NCBI GenBank assembly: GCA_001917135.1
Contig: MNTT01000015.1
Span: 7,751 to 71,750, forward strand
Reading direction: 5' to 3'
DNA length: 64,000 bases
DNA from: Acetobacter sp. 46_36
Lineage (GTDB): Bacteria > Pseudomonadota > Alphaproteobacteria > RF32 > CAG-239
The notes under the pieces were generated by a model. It was not told the DNA's origin. It searched no databases and saw only the letters and a program-made list of their open reading frames with translations. A program made the position numbers and the translations under genes. Each line of letters opens with the position of its first letter. Within the stretch, counting starts at the first letter, position 1. This document shows, in pieces, positions 51,260 to 58,987 of this stretch.

Positions 51260-53530
51260 TCACATTTCCGCCCCGCCCTTAACAGGCACGGCCGGCACCG
51301 GCTGCAAAGGCTGGCGTTCTTTTTTCTCCGGCAAATCCTTTCCCGTTTTAACGCGTTCGCTCTTAAGCGCGTTTTTACGCACACCGACATACGCCCGCTT
51401 ATGCGCTTCCAAGAGTCTGCGTTTTTCTGCCCTTTCGGCATCGCTCAAAATTCTGCCGCCGGCTTCCCCATTCAAAAGCTCGGCCGCTTCCTGCATCGGA
51501 TTGGCTCCATTGATGCTCATATTATATAGCCGACGTTTGGTTTTAATATCCTCTTTGGTCAGGAACGAACGCAGAAACTCATTTGATTTTATCAAATCCT
51601 GCGGTTTCCCGTCCGCTGAGATTTTCCCTTTTTCCACCACAACCACCCGGTCGGAAAGAGCTACTTCCGCCGGATTATGCGTAACCATAATGACCGTTTT
51701 TTCCTTTGCCATATCTTTCAACGCTTTCATAACTTTCAGGCTGAGCTGCCCGTCAAGTCCTATCGTCGGTTCGTCCATAATAACAATCGGCTTGTCTGTC
51801 AAAAAAGCGCGCGCCAAAGCCAGACGCTGCTGCTGCCCGCCCGAAAGTTTAGCTCCGTCTTGTCCGATTCTATGCGAGAGGCCGTCTTTAAACTTTTCGA
51901 CGTCTTTGTCAAACCCGGCTTTGCGGCAGGCTTCCATCAGTTCTTCTTCCGTCGCTCCGGGCTTAAAATATTTAAGGTTATACCCCACCGTATCGTCAAA
52001 GAAGTGAACCTTCTGATCAACAAACGTTATCTGTGCGTTCAGCTCCCGGTCGGAAAGTTCGCGTATTTCTTTATCGCCGATAAATATTTTCCCCTCCTGC
52101 ACATCATAATCATGCCGTATCAGGCTCATCAGCGTTGATTTTCCGTTGCCAGAAGTTCCGACCACTGCCGTCAAACCGCCTTTGTCAAACTCAACACTCA
52201 TATTTTTGAGGACACTCTCCGTCCGCCTGATTTCGCCGTTTCTGTCCATTGCCTCAACCAGGCTCATATCCGTAACGTCCTTAATCAGCGGATACGCAAA
52301 ACTGACATTCTGTACGCTGATTTTAGTATCTCGTTCCGACAGTTTCTCATTGCCTGTAACGCGTTCCAGTTCTTTTGGCGTAATCAGCTTTTTAGATGCG
52401 TCAATCAAGCGGTGCGTTCCGGCCTGCATTTCATTCCACAGCTCAGACAGCATACTGCCCGACATCATCATCTGCCAGGATGCCGAGCTGATAAGGGCAA
52501 ACCGCCCGATATCCCCGGTCTTGACCACATCGGCAAACGCCGCCGCCATAATCAGCCCCTCCATTCCGATACTGATTGCCGTCTGCATTTTCAGATACGC
52601 CTTGCTTTTTTCATAAGTGATTTTCTGCGTAATCCCTGAAGAATGGTCAAGCCTGCTGCGCATCAGCCGCGTTTCCTCCTCAACCCGGTTTGTATCCTGA
52701 ACCAGCGGCGTATTTTTAATTGAATCGCTGTTGTCTTTCCTGATACGGTTGCCAAACGAACGCATTTTGCTGTTTAATTTCCGGTAGGCATTATTCATAA
52801 ACCCGCCGAATTCCGCAGTTACTGCTGTTACGCCGAGAACACCCGCCGCCAGCATCGGATCAACAGCCAGCAGGCTGGCGGAACTGATACCGAATATGAC
52901 CGCTTTTGACAAACACTCAACCGAGGTATTCAAAAGCGTATTCTTCGCCGAAGCAATTTCCCCGGTAATTCCGCCTAACGCCGCCGGAGCATTATCTTTA
53001 AAATACGGACGCGGCTTATGCAAAATATTTTCATAAATGGAACTGGACGCAGCATTGGCGTGCGTATCATTCAAAACAATCGACGCCATTTTTGCCTTAA
53101 ACCGGCAAAAGTTAGACAGCCTTTTGCGAGTAATCTCCAAAACCGCAGCGCCAAAAAACTTTGCCGCCGCGCCGCCCGTACCATTGACCAGCCCCGGCAG
53201 CGAACCGAACAGCAGATTCTGGCAATAAGGATTTAACCCGGCAAAAACCGACTCTCCCATCTTAAACCCGACTGACTTCTTGAAATCCTTTCCGGTTTTG
53301 TTCCAGGCCTCCTGAAAAACACCCCATACCGTTTTAAGCGTTCCCTGTTCTTTGGCTTTTTTCTCCGCGTCATCCAAAACGTCTCCGGCATTTCCCTCTG
53401 TTCTGTTCCCGGACTCTTCAGTTTTTTTCAGTTTCAGCACTGCTTTGCGCGCTTGTCTGGCCAGTTCCAGCAGCCGTTTCCGTTCATACTCCGCGAAATT
53501 GGGAATTTTATTGTCTTTTTCTTTTGCCAT
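51260..53530 (-). CDS. ABC exporter (TMD + C-terminal NBD) with about 120-aa charged N-terminal extension; paralog of the 56843 gene
   Basis: Walker A GTSGNGKST, signature LSGGQQQRLALARAF and Walker B IVIMDEPT. TMD similarity to the 56843 ORF (ADVVKTGDIGRFALIS vs ADIIKTGDIGRLALIS). Start set at MAKEKDN with SD GGAGA. The six-frame ORF runs to 53626. Confidence 0.8.
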   Translation of the reverse strand: MAKEKDNKIPNFAEYERKRLLELARQARKAVLKLKKTEESGNRTEGNAGDVLDDAEKKAKEQGTLKTVWGVFQEAWNKTGKDFKKSVGFKMGESVFAGLNPYCQNLLFGSLPGLVNGTGGAAAKFFGAAVLEITRKRLSNFCRFKAKMASIVLNDTHANAASSSIYENILHKPRPYFKDNAPAALGGITGEIASAKNTLLNTSVECLSKAVIFGISSASLLAVDPMLAAGVLGVTAVTAEFGGFMNNAYRKLNSKMRSFGNRIRKDNSDSIKNTPLVQDTNRVEEETRLMRSRLDHSSGITQKITYEKSKAYLKMQTAISIGMEGLIMAAAFADVVKTGDIGRFALISSASWQMMMSGSMLSELWNEMQAGTHRLIDASKKLITPKELERVTGNEKLSERDTKISVQNVSFAYPLIKDVTDMSLVEAMDRNGEIRRTESVLKNMSVEFDKGGLTAVVGTSGNGKSTLMSLIRHDYDVQEGKIFIGDKEIRELSDRELNAQITFVDQKVHFFDDTVGYNLKYFKPGATEEELMEACRKAGFDKDVEKFKDGLSHRIGQDGAKLSGGQQQRLALARAFLTDKPIVIMDEPTIGLDGQLSLKVMKALKDMAKEKTVIMVTHNPAEVALSDRVVVVEKGKISADGKPQDLIKSNEFLRSFLTKEDIKTKRRLYNMSINGANPMQEAAELLNGEAGGRILSDAERAEKRRLLEAHKRAYVGVRKNALKSERVKTGKDLPEKKERQPLQPVPAVPVKGGAEM

Positions 53531-53755
53531 TGCCAAATCTCCGTTTTCCCATACAAAAATGATACCATAAAATTTGCACGGTGTCCAGCATAAATCTTTA
53601 TGCCGAAAGCACGCCGTACCCGGCACTTCTCCGATTTAAAAACCGCACCGTGCCCATACAGCCCCGTCAATATTTATCATAGTTAATATGACTTTTCCTG
53701 TTCATTGCTTGTTTACGGAGATAATACAAAAAAACGGCGCCGACGCCGCAAAAAA

Positions 53756-53989
53756 TCACCAGTAAATCGGAGGCAGGGCTGTCATTCTGCCGACTGTCCC
53801 GTCGACAACGCCGGCTCGCGAATTACGATAACCGCTGCGCAATGCCCGCTGCTCCACAAAATACATATCCGTTCCGCAGTTATGGCCGAATGTGCTCTCT
53901 TTATAAACACAGGGTCGGATTGACTGGTAATACAACATACTGCGCCGCCTTAAATGCTTTGCATCCAACAAGTCTGACCTGTCTAACAT
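53756..53989 (-). CDS. Small Cys-containing protein (77 aa) with near-consensus Shine-Dalgarno, immediately upstream of the ABC exporter
   Basis: GAGGAGGAGATATG (AGGAGG 4 nt before the ATG). Product MLDRSDLLDAKHLRRRSMLYYQSIRPCVYKESTFGHNCGTDMYFVEQRALRSGYRNSRAGVVDGTVGRMTALPPIYW. Preceded by about 190 bp of AT-rich DNA. No homolog recognised. Confidence 0.4.
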   Translation of the reverse strand: MLDRSDLLDAKHLRRRSMLYYQSIRPCVYKESTFGHNCGTDMYFVEQRALRSGYRNSRAGVVDGTVGRMTALPPIYW

Positions 53990-54183
53990 ATCTCCTCCTC
54001 TAGAATAAATTCTAAAAAAATTAACATATCGATTACATCTTATACTAAAAATTGAATAAATCAATAAATATTTTATTTAAAATAAAAAATCACCTAATTT
54101 TATCGCCTTTTTTAGAAATTCTACACCGCCTAAACCATAAAAATAAGGGACGACTTTCGTCATCCCTTATCATACGTTCCTGT

Positions 54184-55773
54184 TTACATCTCATCGCCGT
54201 GGCCTTCCTTCGGTTCCTCATCTTTTACAAAGCTTTTAAGAGAAAGTGCGTTCTCTTTGATTTTGCTTTGTAAAATAGCCAGGTACTGCTCGCGGGTCAA
54301 ACCCCATTTACGGGCATAAGCACCGACCAGTTCAAACAAGTTTCCCTTGTCATCGCTGTATTTAAACTCCTTATTAAGCATATACAAAAATGTTGCATCC
54401 GCAATTTTGTATTTGTCAATATAAAGAAGTTTATACTTTTGGCAGCGAAAATCCAACGAAAACAACACACCTTCGGCCGCCGGGCACAGATGGTACTCTA
54501 CGGCAGTAAAAGCATCTGCCCGAACTGCCGCAATCTGCGCTCTGGCTTCCATAATGTCAGCCGCGGCTTTTTGCAAAACATGCGTCAGCTCATTCAACCG
54601 TTGTACCGGAATCATATCACCGCTGGCCAGAACGGCAAGCGCATTTTTCGCCAGCTTTTCATCCCAGCCCGCAAACGGAAATTGATTCCGCAAAAACGTC
54701 GATACGCCGCACTCCACCAACTTCTCACGAAGCTTTGTCCGATATGCCTCCTCACCGCAATTCATCAATATGTCAACATCATGCGCCAATTTAACATTAT
54801 CAGCCATTAAGCCAAACAACTGGCTGTAAGCCTCAGAAGACAACAGTTTTTTCAACTGCGCCAAAGAAGATAAGATACAACCGTATATCCGTGCATCACT
54901 CAACCGGCAGACACCGATTGAGAGCCACGCATATGCGTCGGCATAATCGTCCAAATTTCCGCTTAGTGCTACCCCATAAAGGTTTTTCACTTCGGCATGA
55001 CCGTCCAGATGCTTGCGCAGCTGTGGAAACATCATGCAAAAATACGCTGAAAAATCACTATACAGATAGTAATTTTCTCGCACTTTTGCATATAATTCCG
55101 GAAAGAACACCGCCATATACGGCATCAATTCCGCAATATCTTCCTTTGCTTCAAATGCCCGGTTGAAAAAGAGTTCAAAATACTCCCTTCCAATCTCGCC
55201 CAGCTTTTGCGGAACAATCTTTCGCAACTCAAGCATAAACTTGGGCGCCCAAGACGATTTCGCACAAACAAGAGCTTCCGCAAACGCCCAGCGTCTGTCA
55301 TCGGCAACCGGAGCAGCTTCTTTTTCTCCAACGCCAAGAACTTCCCACGGCGCCAGAGAATCAAAAGCTGACGGCACAGCCTTAACCAAATCCAGTGCTT
55401 CCAGCCCGTATTGGTGCAGCAAACGAAGCATACCCGCCTTGTTTGGCGTATAATACTTCATTGCTTGCGCCACACGGTTGATATCCGCCGAAGCAGCAAT
55501 GGTTTCAAACTCGCGTTCCGTACGGATTTCTGCCAACAAAGCGTACTCTCCCTTCCGGAAAAGCTCAATCTTCGTATCCAAAGACCAAACTCTTTCGCGA
55601 AGTTCGTCTGCACTCAACCCCAGCTTGTCAATCAACTGAAGCTGTTTTTGTACACTGGGAAGATACAATTCTGCATTTGAATTGCTCTTTTTGGTGAAAC
55701 ACTTTACCGCCATTTGCGGAAAAAACACTCTCAAAACAGCGGCAAAAAACCGCACAAATAAATTTGTTTTCAT
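54184..55773 (-). CDS. Hypothetical all-alpha protein (529 aa), no recognisable domain
   Basis: Long uninterrupted ORF with a coherent codon pattern. Flanked by AT-rich spacers. No signal peptide and no SD at the annotated start, so the start is uncertain. Confidence 0.55.
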   Translation of the reverse strand: MKTNLFVRFFAAVLRVFFPQMAVKCFTKKSNSNAELYLPSVQKQLQLIDKLGLSADELRERVWSLDTKIELFRKGEYALLAEIRTEREFETIAASADINRVAQAMKYYTPNKAGMLRLLHQYGLEALDLVKAVPSAFDSLAPWEVLGVGEKEAAPVADDRRWAFAEALVCAKSSWAPKFMLELRKIVPQKLGEIGREYFELFFNRAFEAKEDIAELMPYMAVFFPELYAKVRENYYLYSDFSAYFCMMFPQLRKHLDGHAEVKNLYGVALSGNLDDYADAYAWLSIGVCRLSDARIYGCILSSLAQLKKLLSSEAYSQLFGLMADNVKLAHDVDILMNCGEEAYRTKLREKLVECGVSTFLRNQFPFAGWDEKLAKNALAVLASGDMIPVQRLNELTHVLQKAAADIMEARAQIAAVRADAFTAVEYHLCPAAEGVLFSLDFRCQKYKLLYIDKYKIADATFLYMLNKEFKYSDDKGNLFELVGAYARKWGLTREQYLAILQSKIKENALSLKSFVKDEEPKEGHGDEM

Positions 55774-56842: not shown

Positions 56843-58792
56843 TTAGGCTGTTTTCCGACAATGCGCAACAAATAATTCCTTTTTGCTCAATATATCCTGC
56901 CTTGTCATCGCTGATTTCAGGAAGCCCGTATTCTCTATTAAATTAAGCGGTTCTCCGTCTGCAACAATATGCTTGCCTTTAATAATCAGTACCCTGTCTG
57001 CCAATGCAATTTCCGTCGGATTATGCGTAACCAATAACACCGTTTTGTCTGTAGCCAGTTCTTTCAAAGCCTTCATTATCTGGAAACTCATAACCTGATC
57101 CAGCCCCGTCGTCGGTTCATCCATAATCACAATCGGGCGATTTGTTAAAAATGTCCGAGCCAATGCCAACCTCTGCCGCTGCCCGCCCGAAAGCTTATTT
57201 CCGTTAATGCCGATTTTATAATCAAGTCCGCCCTCAAAGTGAGCAATATCTTCCGTCAATCCCGCAGCGTCCAATACCTCTCTTATCCGCTTTTCATCTG
57301 TAACATCGCTAAAATAAGTCAAATTGCGCCGAACAGAGGTATCAAAAAAGCGGACATTCTGACCGATAAAGGCAATATGTCTGTTGATTTCCTCATCCGA
57401 CAAATCACAAACATTTTGTGTTCCGATAAAAACTTCGCCCTGTTGCACATCATAATCGTGCCGAATAATCCTCATCAACGTCGATTTACCTTGTCCGCTT
57501 GTTCCAGCAACAACCGTTACCCCGCCGGCCCGCACGTCAAGAGTTACATTTTCCAAAACCGTATTTCCATATTTAACCTCAGTCAAAAAGCCGACATCTT
57601 CCAGACGTTTAAGCGCTGGATATGCAAAACTGACATTTTCCAGGCGAATAAAATTATCTGCCGCGCTTAGCCGATTATTCCCCGTAACCCTTTCTAAAAC
57701 TTTGGGAAGCTGCATGCGTTTTCTAATATCGGCAATCTTATTTTTATACTCATCAATGCTAAGGTAAGAACGAAGCAATGTCTCGCAACGTATTTTCATT
57801 TGCACTGCCGCACCGGAAATTAAAGCCAATCGTCCGATATCGCCGGTTTTAATAATATCGGCAATCGCCACATAACAAACCGCAACAGCCCCAACAGCTT
57901 CCAAAACCAGATAAAAGCTTTTTTCCCCTATCCGTCTGTTACAATACTTCAGTCTTTTTAAAGCAGAACTTTTCATAAGCTTGGCATAAATCCGCCCACT
58001 TTCTTTTTCTACTTTATTTGCGCTTTGCACTAAAGAAGCCTGCCCGCTGACATCTCCTGTCTCCCGGGAAATTTTCTGCGAAAATAATCTAAACCTTTCG
58101 TCAACCGTTCTGAAAAACTTATTGTTATAGAGAACAAACTCCATGGAAATAAGCTGTAACAACACCATAAACAAAGCCAGCTGCGGAACAATGGCAAACA
58201 AACTAAACGTACAGATAACGAAAGTTATTGCTTCTCTAAAACATTGCAACAATTCATTTAAAACAGAACGTTTATATTGAAAAATTTCCTTTGCAAAAGA
58301 CAACATTGACTCAACACTGTTAACCACAAACAGTGCCCTCGGTTTATGCAAAATCTCAACATAGTTTTTCGCCTGTAAAGCATTATCATACAAATCCGTC
58401 ATTTCACTTTTGAAAAATCCCGAGTACATGAAAAAAACAGACCACAAATACCCGTTAATTTCACTTAATGCCATAAATATGGAAAAAATAACAATCGCTT
58501 CTGTCGTTCCACTCAAAAGTTCAGGCAGCTCTCCCATATAAAGCATTCGCAAATAAGGGGCTATCCCACTTGAAATGCCACATACCGCAGATACCAATAA
58601 TAACTTCTTTAACGGTTTAAGCGCATATATTTTAAGTTCACCCAAAATCTCTCCGATAGTCTCCCGTATCGAAACATCATCACTATTCTTCCGCTCTGCC
58701 GTTTCCTTTCTCCCCCCCAATAAAAATTTAATTCTCAGAACTTCAAACTTAACAAAATTATACTTTTCACGAAAAACAGCCTGTTCTTGCAT
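56843..58792 (-). CDS. ABC exporter (TMD + C-terminal NBD), paralog of the 51260 gene
   Basis: Walker A GTSGQGKST, signature LSGGQRQRLALARTF and Walker B IVIMDEPTTGLD. SD GGAGGA before the ATG at 58792. No C39 peptidase domain. Confidence 0.8.
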   Translation of the reverse strand: MQEQAVFREKYNFVKFEVLRIKFLLGGRKETAERKNSDDVSIRETIGEILGELKIYALKPLKKLLLVSAVCGISSGIAPYLRMLYMGELPELLSGTTEAIVIFSIFMALSEINGYLWSVFFMYSGFFKSEMTDLYDNALQAKNYVEILHKPRALFVVNSVESMLSFAKEIFQYKRSVLNELLQCFREAITFVICTFSLFAIVPQLALFMVLLQLISMEFVLYNNKFFRTVDERFRLFSQKISRETGDVSGQASLVQSANKVEKESGRIYAKLMKSSALKRLKYCNRRIGEKSFYLVLEAVGAVAVCYVAIADIIKTGDIGRLALISGAAVQMKIRCETLLRSYLSIDEYKNKIADIRKRMQLPKVLERVTGNNRLSAADNFIRLENVSFAYPALKRLEDVGFLTEVKYGNTVLENVTLDVRAGGVTVVAGTSGQGKSTLMRIIRHDYDVQQGEVFIGTQNVCDLSDEEINRHIAFIGQNVRFFDTSVRRNLTYFSDVTDEKRIREVLDAAGLTEDIAHFEGGLDYKIGINGNKLSGGQRQRLALARTFLTNRPIVIMDEPTTGLDQVMSFQIMKALKELATDKTVLLVTHNPTEIALADRVLIIKGKHIVADGEPLNLIENTGFLKSAMTRQDILSKKELFVAHCRKTA

Positions 58793-58987
58793 AAAAAAGT
58801 CCTCCAAAATTTGCGAGAACCTTAAAATACGCAAAAATAAGCAGAAAAATCAATAACTTATTTTAACAAAACCGCAAATAAAAAACTTGACAAAAAAATA
58901 TACTTCTTTATAATAAAAGACATAAAGCAAGGGAGCGGTACTTCGCTCCCTTTTTGTGTGCCTCAACACCGGTTCTGAGCGTATTTT

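What the first reader, a model, noticed from the sequence alone, without database searches (positions are those of the whole stretch)
53756..53989. Unannotated small ORF with consensus Shine-Dalgarno upstream of ABC exporter
GAGGAGGAGATATG provides AGGAGG with 4-nt spacing, the strongest RBS I saw in the window. It sits in front of a 77-codon ORF (3 Cys, basic N-terminal third, hydrophobic C-terminus ending PPIYW). The ORF follows about 190 bp of AT-rich promoter-like DNA and ends 225 bp before the exporter gene. Genes this small are routinely missed. In a locus with exporters and a peptidase it is a candidate precursor or immunity peptide. An opposite-strand ORF (53705..53923, poly-Arg/Lys) overlaps it but has no RBS.
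Basis: seen in the sequence. Interest (0 to 1): 0.6.

Follow-up and report, generated by a model that had tools for sequence, protein, structure and literature searches.

The report
Real, conserved orphan small-protein gene
The 77-codon ORF is a real protein-coding gene with its own promoter and terminator, from an unnamed small-protein family in a few related human-gut bacteria; its function is unknown, and it does not look like a bacteriocin precursor or a leader peptide for the neighbouring ABC gene.

Summary
The ORF exists on the minus strand (ATG 53989, stop 53756) behind AGGAGG-AGAT-ATG. It is a real gene.

- **Selection:** substitutions pile up at third codon positions at three depths. 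Within the species, 12 of 15 polymorphic sites are synonymous. L026 vs L027 gives pN/pS 0.12. Window vs L004 gives 10/8/41 differences by codon position, pN/pS 0.15.
- **Rejected ORF:** the opposite-strand ORF is not coding.
- **Family:** about eight lineages, all about 77 aa, have no Pfam, NCBIfam, PDB or source name. They share MLDR.D.LDA, YYQ, RSGY and an almost invariant C-terminal LPP[IV][YF]W-stop.
- **Protein:** basic, hydrophilic, no signal peptide or TM segment, 2 Cys (not 3, and not conserved).
- **Transcription unit:** a strong terminator follows the upstream gene in the window and the three lineages scanned. Then come a conserved promoter block and the ORF's own terminator, which carries one compensatory stem change.
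- **Downstream gene:** the ABC gene has its own promoter-like site.
- **Variants:** a few strains carry deletions in one 37-nt hot-spot.
- **L025:** this lineage lost the ABC genes but kept the ORF.

Tests for a crocagin-type RiPP precursor, a double-glycine bacteriocin and an attenuator leader peptide failed. Best reading: a small protein acting in trans, partner unknown.

The parts
54142..54171 (-). Intrinsic terminator of the upstream 529-aa gene. It insulates the small ORF from that gene.
   Evidence: 13-bp stem plus T-run. An equivalent hairpin follows the homologous gene in L021, L024 and L027, with stem changes that keep the pairing.
54037..54082 (-). Promoter block of the small ORF: an A/T-rich UP-like element (TTTTAAATAAAATA), -35 TTGATT (54064..54059), a 16-nt spacer and -10 TAAGAT (54042..54037).
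   Evidence: The block is conserved across six diverged lineages while the surrounding DNA is not. It occurs once in the window. The L025 version is TTGATT-16-TATAAT, 10 of 12 matches. The window's hexamers were read by eye and the promoter scan did not list them. This is consensus-level evidence only; the transcription start is not mapped.
53990..54036 (-). 5' UTR with a conserved U7-8 run, followed by the Shine-Dalgarno AGGAGG (53999..53994).
   Evidence: The U-run and the purine-rich SD are present in all lineages. An SD-sequestering hairpin is significant only in the window (z -2.8) and L025 (z -3.6), so it is not a conserved structure.
53756..53989 (-). Small protein gene: 77 codons plus TGA.
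   Evidence: Translation. pN/pS is 0.15 against L004, with 10/8/41 differences by codon position. Within the species there are 12 synonymous and 3 non-synonymous polymorphisms. Homologues of about 77 aa occur in about eight lineages. GC (0.51) and GC3 (0.58) resemble the neighbouring genes.
53756..53776 (-). Codons for the conserved C-terminal tail A-L-P-P-I-Y-W plus the stop. This is the best-conserved feature of the family.
   Evidence: L72, P73 and W77 are invariant in alignment A8. The tails are ALPPIYW, ALPPVYW, ALPPVFW, TLPPVFW, GLPVIYW and SLPSLSW.
53727..53749 (-). Intrinsic terminator of the small ORF (GCGGCG-TCGG-CGCCGT plus T7), starting 6 nt after the stop.
   Evidence: Terminator scan. 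L004 has GCGGCA-ATAA-TGCCGT, a compensatory G:C to A:T change in the stem. Terminators also follow the ORF in L024 (50 nt after the stop) and L027 (81 nt after). None was found in L021 or L025.
53818..53854 (-). Deletion hot-spot inside the ORF (codons 46-58).
   Evidence: L001 has a 29-nt deletion (53846..53818). L003 has a 37-nt deletion (53854..53818), flanked by GAGC direct repeats. L005 has a 1-nt deletion (53822). P0012 has an in-frame 114-nt deletion ending at 53825.
53559..53587 (-). Context only: promoter-like site of the downstream ABC gene (TGGACA-17-TATCAT with an extended -10 TG).
   Evidence: 10 of 12 matches, identical in L004. The scan found a similar site before the ABC gene in L024. 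Comparable sites in L021 and L027 were read by eye from the sequence.
53705..53923 (+). Opposite-strand ORF. Not a gene.
   Evidence: pN/pS 2.9 against L004, a stop codon in L004, and no ribosome-binding site.

Best explanation
This is a real small-protein gene transcribed on its own. It has its own promoter, a strong ribosome-binding site, 77 codons and its own terminator. The product is a basic, hydrophilic, cytoplasmic protein with no confidently predicted fold on its own. It belongs to an unnamed orphan family found so far only in a few related diderm bacteria of the human gut. The only species-representative genome that carries it is MAG UMGS1453.

Shown:
- It is protein-coding and under purifying selection.
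- It has the anatomy of an independent transcription unit.
- Its position is conserved between an orphan helical-repeat protein and an atypical ABC half-transporter.
- It survives in one lineage that has lost those neighbours.

Inferred:
- It acts in trans as a protein, not in cis as a leader.
- The near-invariant C-terminal tail LPP[IV][YF]W-COOH and the conserved N-terminal segment (MLDR.D.LDA...YYQ) are docking elements for a partner.
- The most likely partners are the adjacent alpha-solenoid protein or the cytoplasmic extensions of the ABC half-transporters. This partner assignment is speculation.
For: Coding:
- Window vs L004 has 59 differences, split 10/8/41 by codon position, with pS 0.73 and pN 0.11. 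Four of the five other frames give ratios of 1.3 or more. The fifth gives 0.22 but carries 4-6 stop codons.
- Within the species there are 12 synonymous and 3 non-synonymous polymorphisms in 14 intact copies. L026 vs L027 gives pN/pS 0.12. All deeper pairs show a third-position excess.
- Length is fixed at 77 (76) codons in lineages down to 41% identity.
- A strong SD precedes the start in every lineage.

Independent unit:
- A terminator follows the upstream gene in the window, L021, L024 and L027.
- The promoter block is conserved.
- The ORF's own terminator has a compensatory stem change.
- The ABC gene has a separate promoter-like site.

Acting in trans:
- In L025 a deletion of about 6 kb removed the three ABC genes and left a fragment of the first. 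The 529-aa gene is not within the 1.1 kb of contig upstream of the ORF. The ORF, its promoter, SD and invariant residues remain.
- The protein is soluble and basic: pI 9.0-9.8, and no 19-residue hydrophobic window scores above 0.8.

Partner idea:
- The two genes are adjacent in every lineage except L025.
Against: - No homologue has a known function. There is no Pfam, NCBIfam, PADLOC, PHROG or PDB match.
- The AlphaFold model of the small protein is uninformative, with mean pLDDT 45.
- No expression or protein data are available.
- Loss-of-function or altered alleles occur in some strains (L001, L003, P0012), so the gene is dispensable under some conditions.
- A C-terminal x-Y-W also recalls RiPP cores.
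- The partner assignment rests on gene neighbourhood alone. It is weakened by L025, where the neighbours are absent from the stretch of contig seen.
Confidence: 0.6

Rival explanations
1. RiPP precursor. The long conserved N-terminal part is a leader. The C-terminal x-Y/F-W is a core that is modified, cut off and exported by the neighbouring ABC transporters. The chemistry would be crocagin-like or different, carried out by non-homologous enzymes.
For: - Crocagin precursor CgnA and its mined relatives end in x-Tyr-Trp at the extreme C-terminus, behind basic leaders (PMC10070186).
- Here the tail is IYW or VYW in most lineages and the N-terminal third is basic.
- The cluster holds four ABC exporter genes, a GNAT, an HD-domain protein, a nearby glycosyltransferase and a 46x-aa orphan with non-significant subtilisin-like matches.
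Against: - No CgnB, CgnE, CgnC or CgnD-type protein lies within 6 kb. The two orphan neighbours have no PDB sequence match at E<=10, and the PDB holds CgnB and CgnE according to the paper.
- The 529-aa neighbour has a helical-repeat scaffold fold, not an enzyme fold.
- Known precursors are 20-37 aa and end in (G/Q)N-xYW. This protein is 77 aa and ends in LPP-xYW.
- The Tyr is Phe or Ser in three lineages.
- The first 47 residues are under the strongest constraint, pN/pS 0.09.
- L025 keeps the ORF without exporters.
- HD and one ABC gene are absent in L004 and L024.
Confidence: 0.12
2. Cis-acting leader peptide. Translation of the ORF, or ribosome stalling at its PP..W-stop end, controls read-through of the terminator 6 nt after the stop. 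That in turn controls expression of the downstream ABC exporter, as BmrB does for BmrCD in Bacillus subtilis (recalled from memory, not checked here).
For: - The ORF lies on the same strand directly upstream of an ABC exporter gene in all lineages but one.
- In the window and L004 the terminator begins 6 nt after the stop, so a ribosome at the stop codon would cover its 5' arm. This is inference.
- An anti-SD-like ATCTCCG after the terminator is complementary to the ABC gene's SD. The two pair in the minimum-free-energy fold.
- The last residues before the stop are conserved.
Against: - The distance from stop to terminator is 6, 50 or 81 nt, or no terminator is found, so the geometry is not conserved.
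- The ABC gene has its own promoter-like site roughly 30 nt upstream of its ATG. The scan found it in the window and L024, and comparable sites were read by eye in L021 and L027.
- The intergenic lengths are 96, 222 and 296 nt, with no shared RNA structure.
- The whole 77-aa protein is constrained, most strongly the N-terminal 47 residues, which would be outside the ribosome tunnel.
- L025 keeps the ORF although the ABC genes are gone.
- No Rfam match.
Confidence: 0.08
3. A gene decaying in this species. It was functional in the family's history, but in the window's lineage it is on the way to loss, as the recurrent deletions suggest.
For: Four independent lesions cluster in one 37-nt stretch among roughly two dozen close copies. 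In L001 and L003 the two adjacent genes (the 529-aa gene and the downstream ABC gene) are intact.
Against: - 16 fetched loci of the window type carry the intact 77 codons.
- Polymorphism within the species is 12 synonymous to 3 non-synonymous, which shows ongoing purifying selection.
- L005 has 2.6x coverage, and L002 comes from an assembly whose neighbouring genes are also broken. Both lesions may be errors.
Confidence: 0.1
4. Not a protein gene. The conservation would reflect a non-coding RNA or a DNA element.
For: - The window mRNA folds more stably than shuffled controls, z -4.35.
- It has long-range complementarity between the YYQ codons and the W-stop codons.
Against: - The third-position substitution pattern holds at three depths.
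- The frame and length are kept at 41-55% amino-acid identity, with synonymous sites saturated.
- No Rfam hit.
- The complementarity follows largely from the conserved codons and is not kept by covariation beyond that (read by eye).
Confidence: 0.02

Closest known systems
Conserved small ORF-encoded proteins of the human gut microbiome (orphan families without domains)
   Same: A product of 77 aa, found only in gut metagenomes and MAGs, with no domain and no name. It is under purifying selection, has a strong ribosome-binding site, and is called inconsistently by gene finders: 56, 60, 68, 77, 97 and 107 aa versions exist.
   Different: I could not check whether this particular family is listed in a published small-protein catalogue. 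Its fixed position between an alpha-solenoid orphan and an atypical ABC half-transporter is specific to it, as is its invariant C-terminal Trp.
Crocagin precursor CgnA and related x-Tyr-Trp RiPP precursors (PMC10070186)
   Same: A ribosomal product whose last three residues are Ile/Val-Tyr-Trp, a basic N-terminal part, and transporters and a glycosyltransferase nearby.
   Different: - It is 77 aa against 20-37 aa.
- LPP precedes the tail instead of (G/Q)N.
- The Tyr is not invariant.
- No CgnB/CgnE peptide-binding proteins, dioxygenase or hydrolase are present.
- The N-terminal 47 residues are the most constrained part.
Leader ORF bmrB upstream of the ABC exporter genes bmrCD (ribosome-mediated transcription attenuation; recalled from memory, not checked here)
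   Same: A small ORF with a strong ribosome-binding site on the same strand, directly upstream of an ABC exporter gene, with an intrinsic terminator in between.
   Different: - The terminator position is not conserved.
- The exporter gene has its own promoter-like site.
- No conserved alternative RNA structures were found.
- The ORF persists where the exporter genes were deleted.

Membership tests
Protein-coding gene (generic criteria) | Excess of synonymous over non-synonymous change in the proposed frame, and not in the other frames | tested here: met
   pN/pS is 0.15 (window vs L004), 0.12 (L026 vs L027) and about 0.07 within the species. Four of the five other frames give ratios of 1.3 or more, and the fifth (0.22) carries 4-6 stop codons.
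Protein-coding gene (generic criteria) | Reading frame and length kept in diverged relatives | tested here: met
   77 (76) codons in about eight lineages down to 41% identity. A minority of close strains carry deletions.
Protein-coding gene (generic criteria) | Evidence of transcription and translation | not testable with these tools
   No RNA-seq, ribosome profiling or proteomics data are available here. Only sequence signals (promoter, SD, terminator) were seen.
Crocagin-type RiPP precursor | Extreme C-terminal core x-Tyr-Trp | tested here: inconclusive
   IYW or VYW in most lineages, but VFW in two and LSW in L004. Only Trp is invariant.
Crocagin-type RiPP precursor | Short (20-37 aa) Lys/Arg-rich leader ending in (G/Q)N before the core | tested here: not met
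   The protein is 77 aa and the tail is preceded by (T)ALPP. Published precursors are listed.
Crocagin-type RiPP precursor | CgnB/CgnE-family peptide-binding proteins within about 2 kb, plus a dioxygenase (CgnC) and a hydrolase (CgnD) | tested here: not met
Double-glycine bacteriocin precursor with a peptidase-ABC exporter | ABC exporter with an N-terminal C39 peptidase domain | tested here: not met
   Pfam finds only ABC_tran and related ATPase families in the 757-aa and 663-aa proteins. NCBIfam matches to peptidase-containing bacteriocin exporters cover only the transporter part and fall below the cut-offs.
Double-glycine bacteriocin precursor with a peptidase-ABC exporter | Leader with a conserved GG/GA cleavage motif followed by a variable mature peptide | tested here: not met
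   No such motif was seen by eye in alignment A8. The conserved parts are the N-terminal 55 residues and the last 6 residues.
Leader peptide of a ribosome-mediated attenuator | Terminator and antiterminator structures in fixed register with the leader ORF, conserved among relatives | tested here: not met
   The terminator lies 6, 50 or 81 nt after the stop, or is absent. The intergenic lengths are 96-296 nt.
Leader peptide of a ribosome-mediated attenuator | The regulated gene depends on the leader's promoter, with no promoter in between | tested here: inconclusive
   A promoter-like site precedes the ABC gene: scan hits in the window and L024, sites read by eye in L021 and L027. These are consensus matches only and no transcription start sites are mapped.
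Known RNA families (Rfam 15) | Match to a covariance model | tested here: not met
   No match at E<=1 in 53000..54600 on either strand.

The most novel reading that the evidence does not exclude
The protein is the precursor of a new kind of C-terminal Trp-derived ribosomal natural product. The last residues (x-Y/F-W) would be modified and released by enzymes unrelated to the crocagin machinery, and exported by the unusual ABC half-transporters, in a gut commensal. Alternatively, it is a new small regulatory subunit that plugs its LPPxYW tail into those transporters or into the alpha-solenoid neighbour.
Probability: 0.12. Interest if true: 0.7.

Novelty: new member of a known kind. Interest (0 to 1): 0.33.

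Why it matters
It adds a well-supported unnamed family to the many small proteins of gut bacteria that annotation handles badly. Public gene calls give it six different lengths.

The family has a striking invariant C-terminal tail. It sits at a fixed position next to two orphan proteins and atypical ABC half-transporters, which gives a concrete starting point for experiments on that uncharacterised gene cluster.

It also shows that a few frame-shifted alleles in close strains do not disprove a small gene when deeper comparisons show purifying selection.

On present evidence it is an ordinary hypothetical small protein, not a new type of system.

Tried and rejected
1. **Known RNA families.** Rfam scan of 53000..54600 found nothing.
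2. **Family libraries.** The small protein, alone or as an alignment, has no match in Pfam, NCBIfam, PADLOC, PHROGs or PDB sequences.
3. **Structure.** AlphaFold2 on a 7-sequence alignment gave pLDDT 45, so no fold search was attempted.
4. **FourU-type or SD-sequestering RNA thermometer in the 5' UTR.** The hairpin is significant in only 2 of 6 lineages. Rejected.
5. **Shared regulon.** The promoter block occurs once in the window.
6. **Long-range RNA pairings** (I2 and I6; the GGCGGCGC segment against the terminator). They are not maintained in relatives or in the majority allele. Rejected as chance or as a by-product of conserved codons.
7. **Crocagin-type RiPP.** Checked against PMC10070186 and its supplements. 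The defining proteins are absent.
8. **Peptidase neighbour.** No Pfam hit at E<=10, and subtilisins appear only at E 1.5-1.8. Unproven.
9. **Defence-system reading of the cluster.** The PADLOC hits cover only the ATPase domains of the two ABC proteins.
10. **Spurious long matches.** The two long proteins hit by the exhaustive HMMER search (P0013, P0014) are repeat proteins and were discarded.
11. **Literature.** A search for the tail motif and for UMGS1453 found nothing relevant.
12. **AFDB Foldseek.** The library was unavailable.

Full report
**Observation.** The ORF lies on the minus strand. ATG is at 53989 and the TGA stop at 53758..53756, giving 77 codons that translate to MLDRSDLLDAKHLRRRSMLYYQSIRPCVYKESTFGHNCGTDMYFVEQRALRSGYRNSRAGVVDGTVGRMTALPPIYW. 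AGGAGG sits 4 nt before the ATG. The window holds six AGGAGG-N3-9-ATG sites, so this one is among the strongest but not unique. The upstream spacer is 194 nt at 26% GC. The ORF is 51% GC with GC3 of 0.58, like the neighbouring genes. Two details of the finding are wrong. There are 2 cysteines, not 3. The C-terminus is not hydrophobic: the protein is basic (pI 9.6) and hydrophilic, with no TM segment or signal peptide.

**Is it coding?** Yes. The one moderately diverged syntenic copy (L004) differs at 59 of 234 positions, split 10/8/41 by codon position. That gives pS 0.73, pN 0.11 and pN/pS 0.15, or 0.09 over codons 1-47. Four of the five other frames give ratios of 1.3 or more. The fifth, the antisense frame in codon register, gives 0.22 but carries 4-6 stop codons. 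The opposite-strand ORF 53705..53923 gives 2.9 and has a stop in L004. Among 14 nearly identical intact copies from human-gut metagenomes, 12 of 15 polymorphic sites are synonymous. L026 vs L027 gives 19 synonymous and 8 non-synonymous changes. All deeper pairs keep a third-position excess.

**Family.**
- A word-indexed search found only close relatives.
- An exhaustive HMMER search of 1.84 billion representatives, followed by a profile search, found about eight lineages. All are about 77 aa, none has a name or domain, and all come from metagenomes or MAGs.
- One called 107-aa version really starts at a GTG directly after AGGAGGAGACG.
- Conserved features are MLDR.D.LDA, YYQ, F.E.RA.R.GY and above all the C-terminal (T)ALPP[IV][YF]W-stop, with L72, P73 and W77 invariant.
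- The cysteines are not conserved.
- Only one species-representative genome carries the gene, a human-gut MAG labelled UMGS1453.
- Twelve further human-gut contigs carry it intact.
- AlphaFold2 gives no confident fold, pLDDT 45.

**Transcription unit.**
- The upstream 529-aa gene ends in a strong terminator in the window and in L021, L024 and L027.
- An A/T-rich block plus TTGATT-16-TA..AT hexamers follows. It is conserved across six lineages while the surrounding DNA is not. The window's hexamers were read by eye; only the L025 version was picked up by the promoter scan.
- Next come a U-run and the SD.
- In the window a hairpin (GCGGCG-TCGG-CGCCGT plus T7) starts 6 nt after the stop. L004 has GCGGCA-ATAA-TGCCGT, a compensatory change in the stem.
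- L024 and L027 have terminators 50 and 81 nt after the stop. None was found in L021 or L025.
- The downstream ABC gene has its own promoter-like site shortly before its ATG (TGGACA-17-TATCAT with TG, 53587..53559). The scan found a similar site in L024, and comparable sites were read by eye in L021 and L027.
- The ORF therefore looks monocistronic.

**Disrupted alleles.** Some close relatives have altered C-terminal thirds.
- L001 has a 29-nt deletion.
- L003 has a 37-nt deletion between GAGC repeats.
- L005 has a 1-nt deletion, at 2.6x coverage.
- P0012 has an in-frame 114-nt deletion.
- All of these end within 8 nt of one another, at 53825..53818.
- L002 comes from an assembly whose neighbouring genes are also broken.
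- In L001 and L003 the two adjacent genes, the 529-aa gene and the downstream ABC gene, are intact.

This partly meets the finder's refutation criterion. The intact allele dominates, however, and it is under purifying selection. I read these alleles as occasional loss or alteration at a deletion-prone site.

**Context.** The gene order is conserved: 46x-aa orphan, GNAT, [ABC 65x aa, HD], about 520-aa orphan, small ORF, ABC about 750 aa, then a convergent canonical ABC exporter pair, glycosyltransferase, GroES/GroEL and an autotransporter. L004 and L024 lack the bracketed pair.

Between the window and L004 the locus is mosaic: GNAT 94%, 529-aa gene 43.5%, small ORF 79% and ABC 88% amino-acid identity. 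The ABC gene has pS of only 0.23. The ORF and the 529-aa gene therefore form a deeply diverged module, with a recombination boundary near the ORF's 3' end.

In L025 a fragment of the first ABC-pair gene remains right after the ORF. A deletion of about 6 kb removed all three ABC genes. Upstream lies an unrelated lipoprotein-like gene. The ORF still keeps its promoter (10/12), SD, 76 codons and invariant residues.

**Hypotheses tested.**
- *Leader peptide or attenuator of the ABC gene.* The 6-nt spacing between stop and terminator, and an anti-SD-like ATCTCCG that pairs with the ABC gene's SD in the fold, are suggestive. The geometry is not conserved, however. The ABC gene has its own promoter-like site, the whole protein is constrained rather than only the tunnel-proximal part, and L025 keeps the ORF without the ABC genes. 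Disfavoured.
- *Double-glycine bacteriocin.* There is no C39 domain and no GG motif.
- *RNA element.* There is no Rfam match, and the candidate pairings are not maintained.

**Conclusion.** This is a real, independently transcribed gene for a small, basic, soluble protein of an unnamed, lineage-restricted family. The most likely mode of action is in trans as a protein. The invariant C-terminal tail and the conserved N-terminal segment would serve as docking elements. The adjacent helical-repeat protein or the ABC half-transporters are the obvious candidate partners, but that step is inference only.

| Statement | Confidence |
|---|---|
| It is a protein-coding gene | about 0.95 |
| It acts in trans rather than as a precursor or leader | about 0.6 |
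| Any specific partner | low |

It is a new member of a known kind, an orphan small protein, and of modest interest.

Noticed in passing
window 53818..53854 (-): Deletion hot-spot inside the ORF. Four independent lesions in close relatives (29 nt, 37 nt, 1 nt and an in-frame 114 nt) all end within 8 nt of one another, next to the palindrome TCGCGA. The 37-nt deletion is flanked by GAGC direct repeats.
   Followed up: partly
window 54184..55773 (-): The 529-aa orphan neighbour is hypervariable between otherwise similar strains: 43.5% identity against about 90% for the flanking genes. Its model is a confident alpha-solenoid with an N-terminal hydrophobic helix. The family has 34 clusters, all without a name.
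   Followed up: partly
window 51260..53533 (-) and 56843..58834 (-): Two atypical ABC half-transporters (757 and 663 aa) have no Pfam ABC_membrane hit. They match MsbA-type NCBIfam models only below the cut-offs, and they have long charged N- and C-terminal extensions. They share about 39% identity with each other.
   Followed up: no
window 53716..53722 and 53541..53547 (-), approximate: ATCTCCG just after the ORF's terminator is exactly complementary to the ABC gene's SD region CGGAGAT about 170 nt downstream. The two pair in the minimum-free-energy fold. Both are identical in L004, but that whole spacer is 89% identical, so this is no test.
   Followed up: partly
L025 1500..1628 (-): A remnant of the first gene of the canonical ABC pair (residues 20-62, 63% identity) marks a deletion of about 6 kb that removed three ABC genes. 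It leaves the small ORF next to glycosyltransferase-GroES-GroEL.
   Followed up: yes
window 59520..61079 (-): The 46x-aa orphan is conserved at 65-75% identity among lineages. Its motifs (VID, HG, GVAPKADIY) resemble the Asp and His regions of subtilases, but it has no significant match: no Pfam hit, and PDB subtilisins only at E 1.5-1.8.
   Followed up: partly
L026 240..378: One relative (P0011) has its last 19 or so residues replaced by an unrelated 45-residue tail on a 681-nt contig. This is either a recombinant or an assembly chimera.
   Followed up: no
window 53915..53931 and 53755..53771 (-): The codons for YYQSIR and for PPIYW-stop are 82% complementary over 17 nt. The core of the pairing follows from UAU-UAY-CAR against UGG-URA, and it persists for 6-8 bp in the other lineages for that reason (by eye).
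   Followed up: partly
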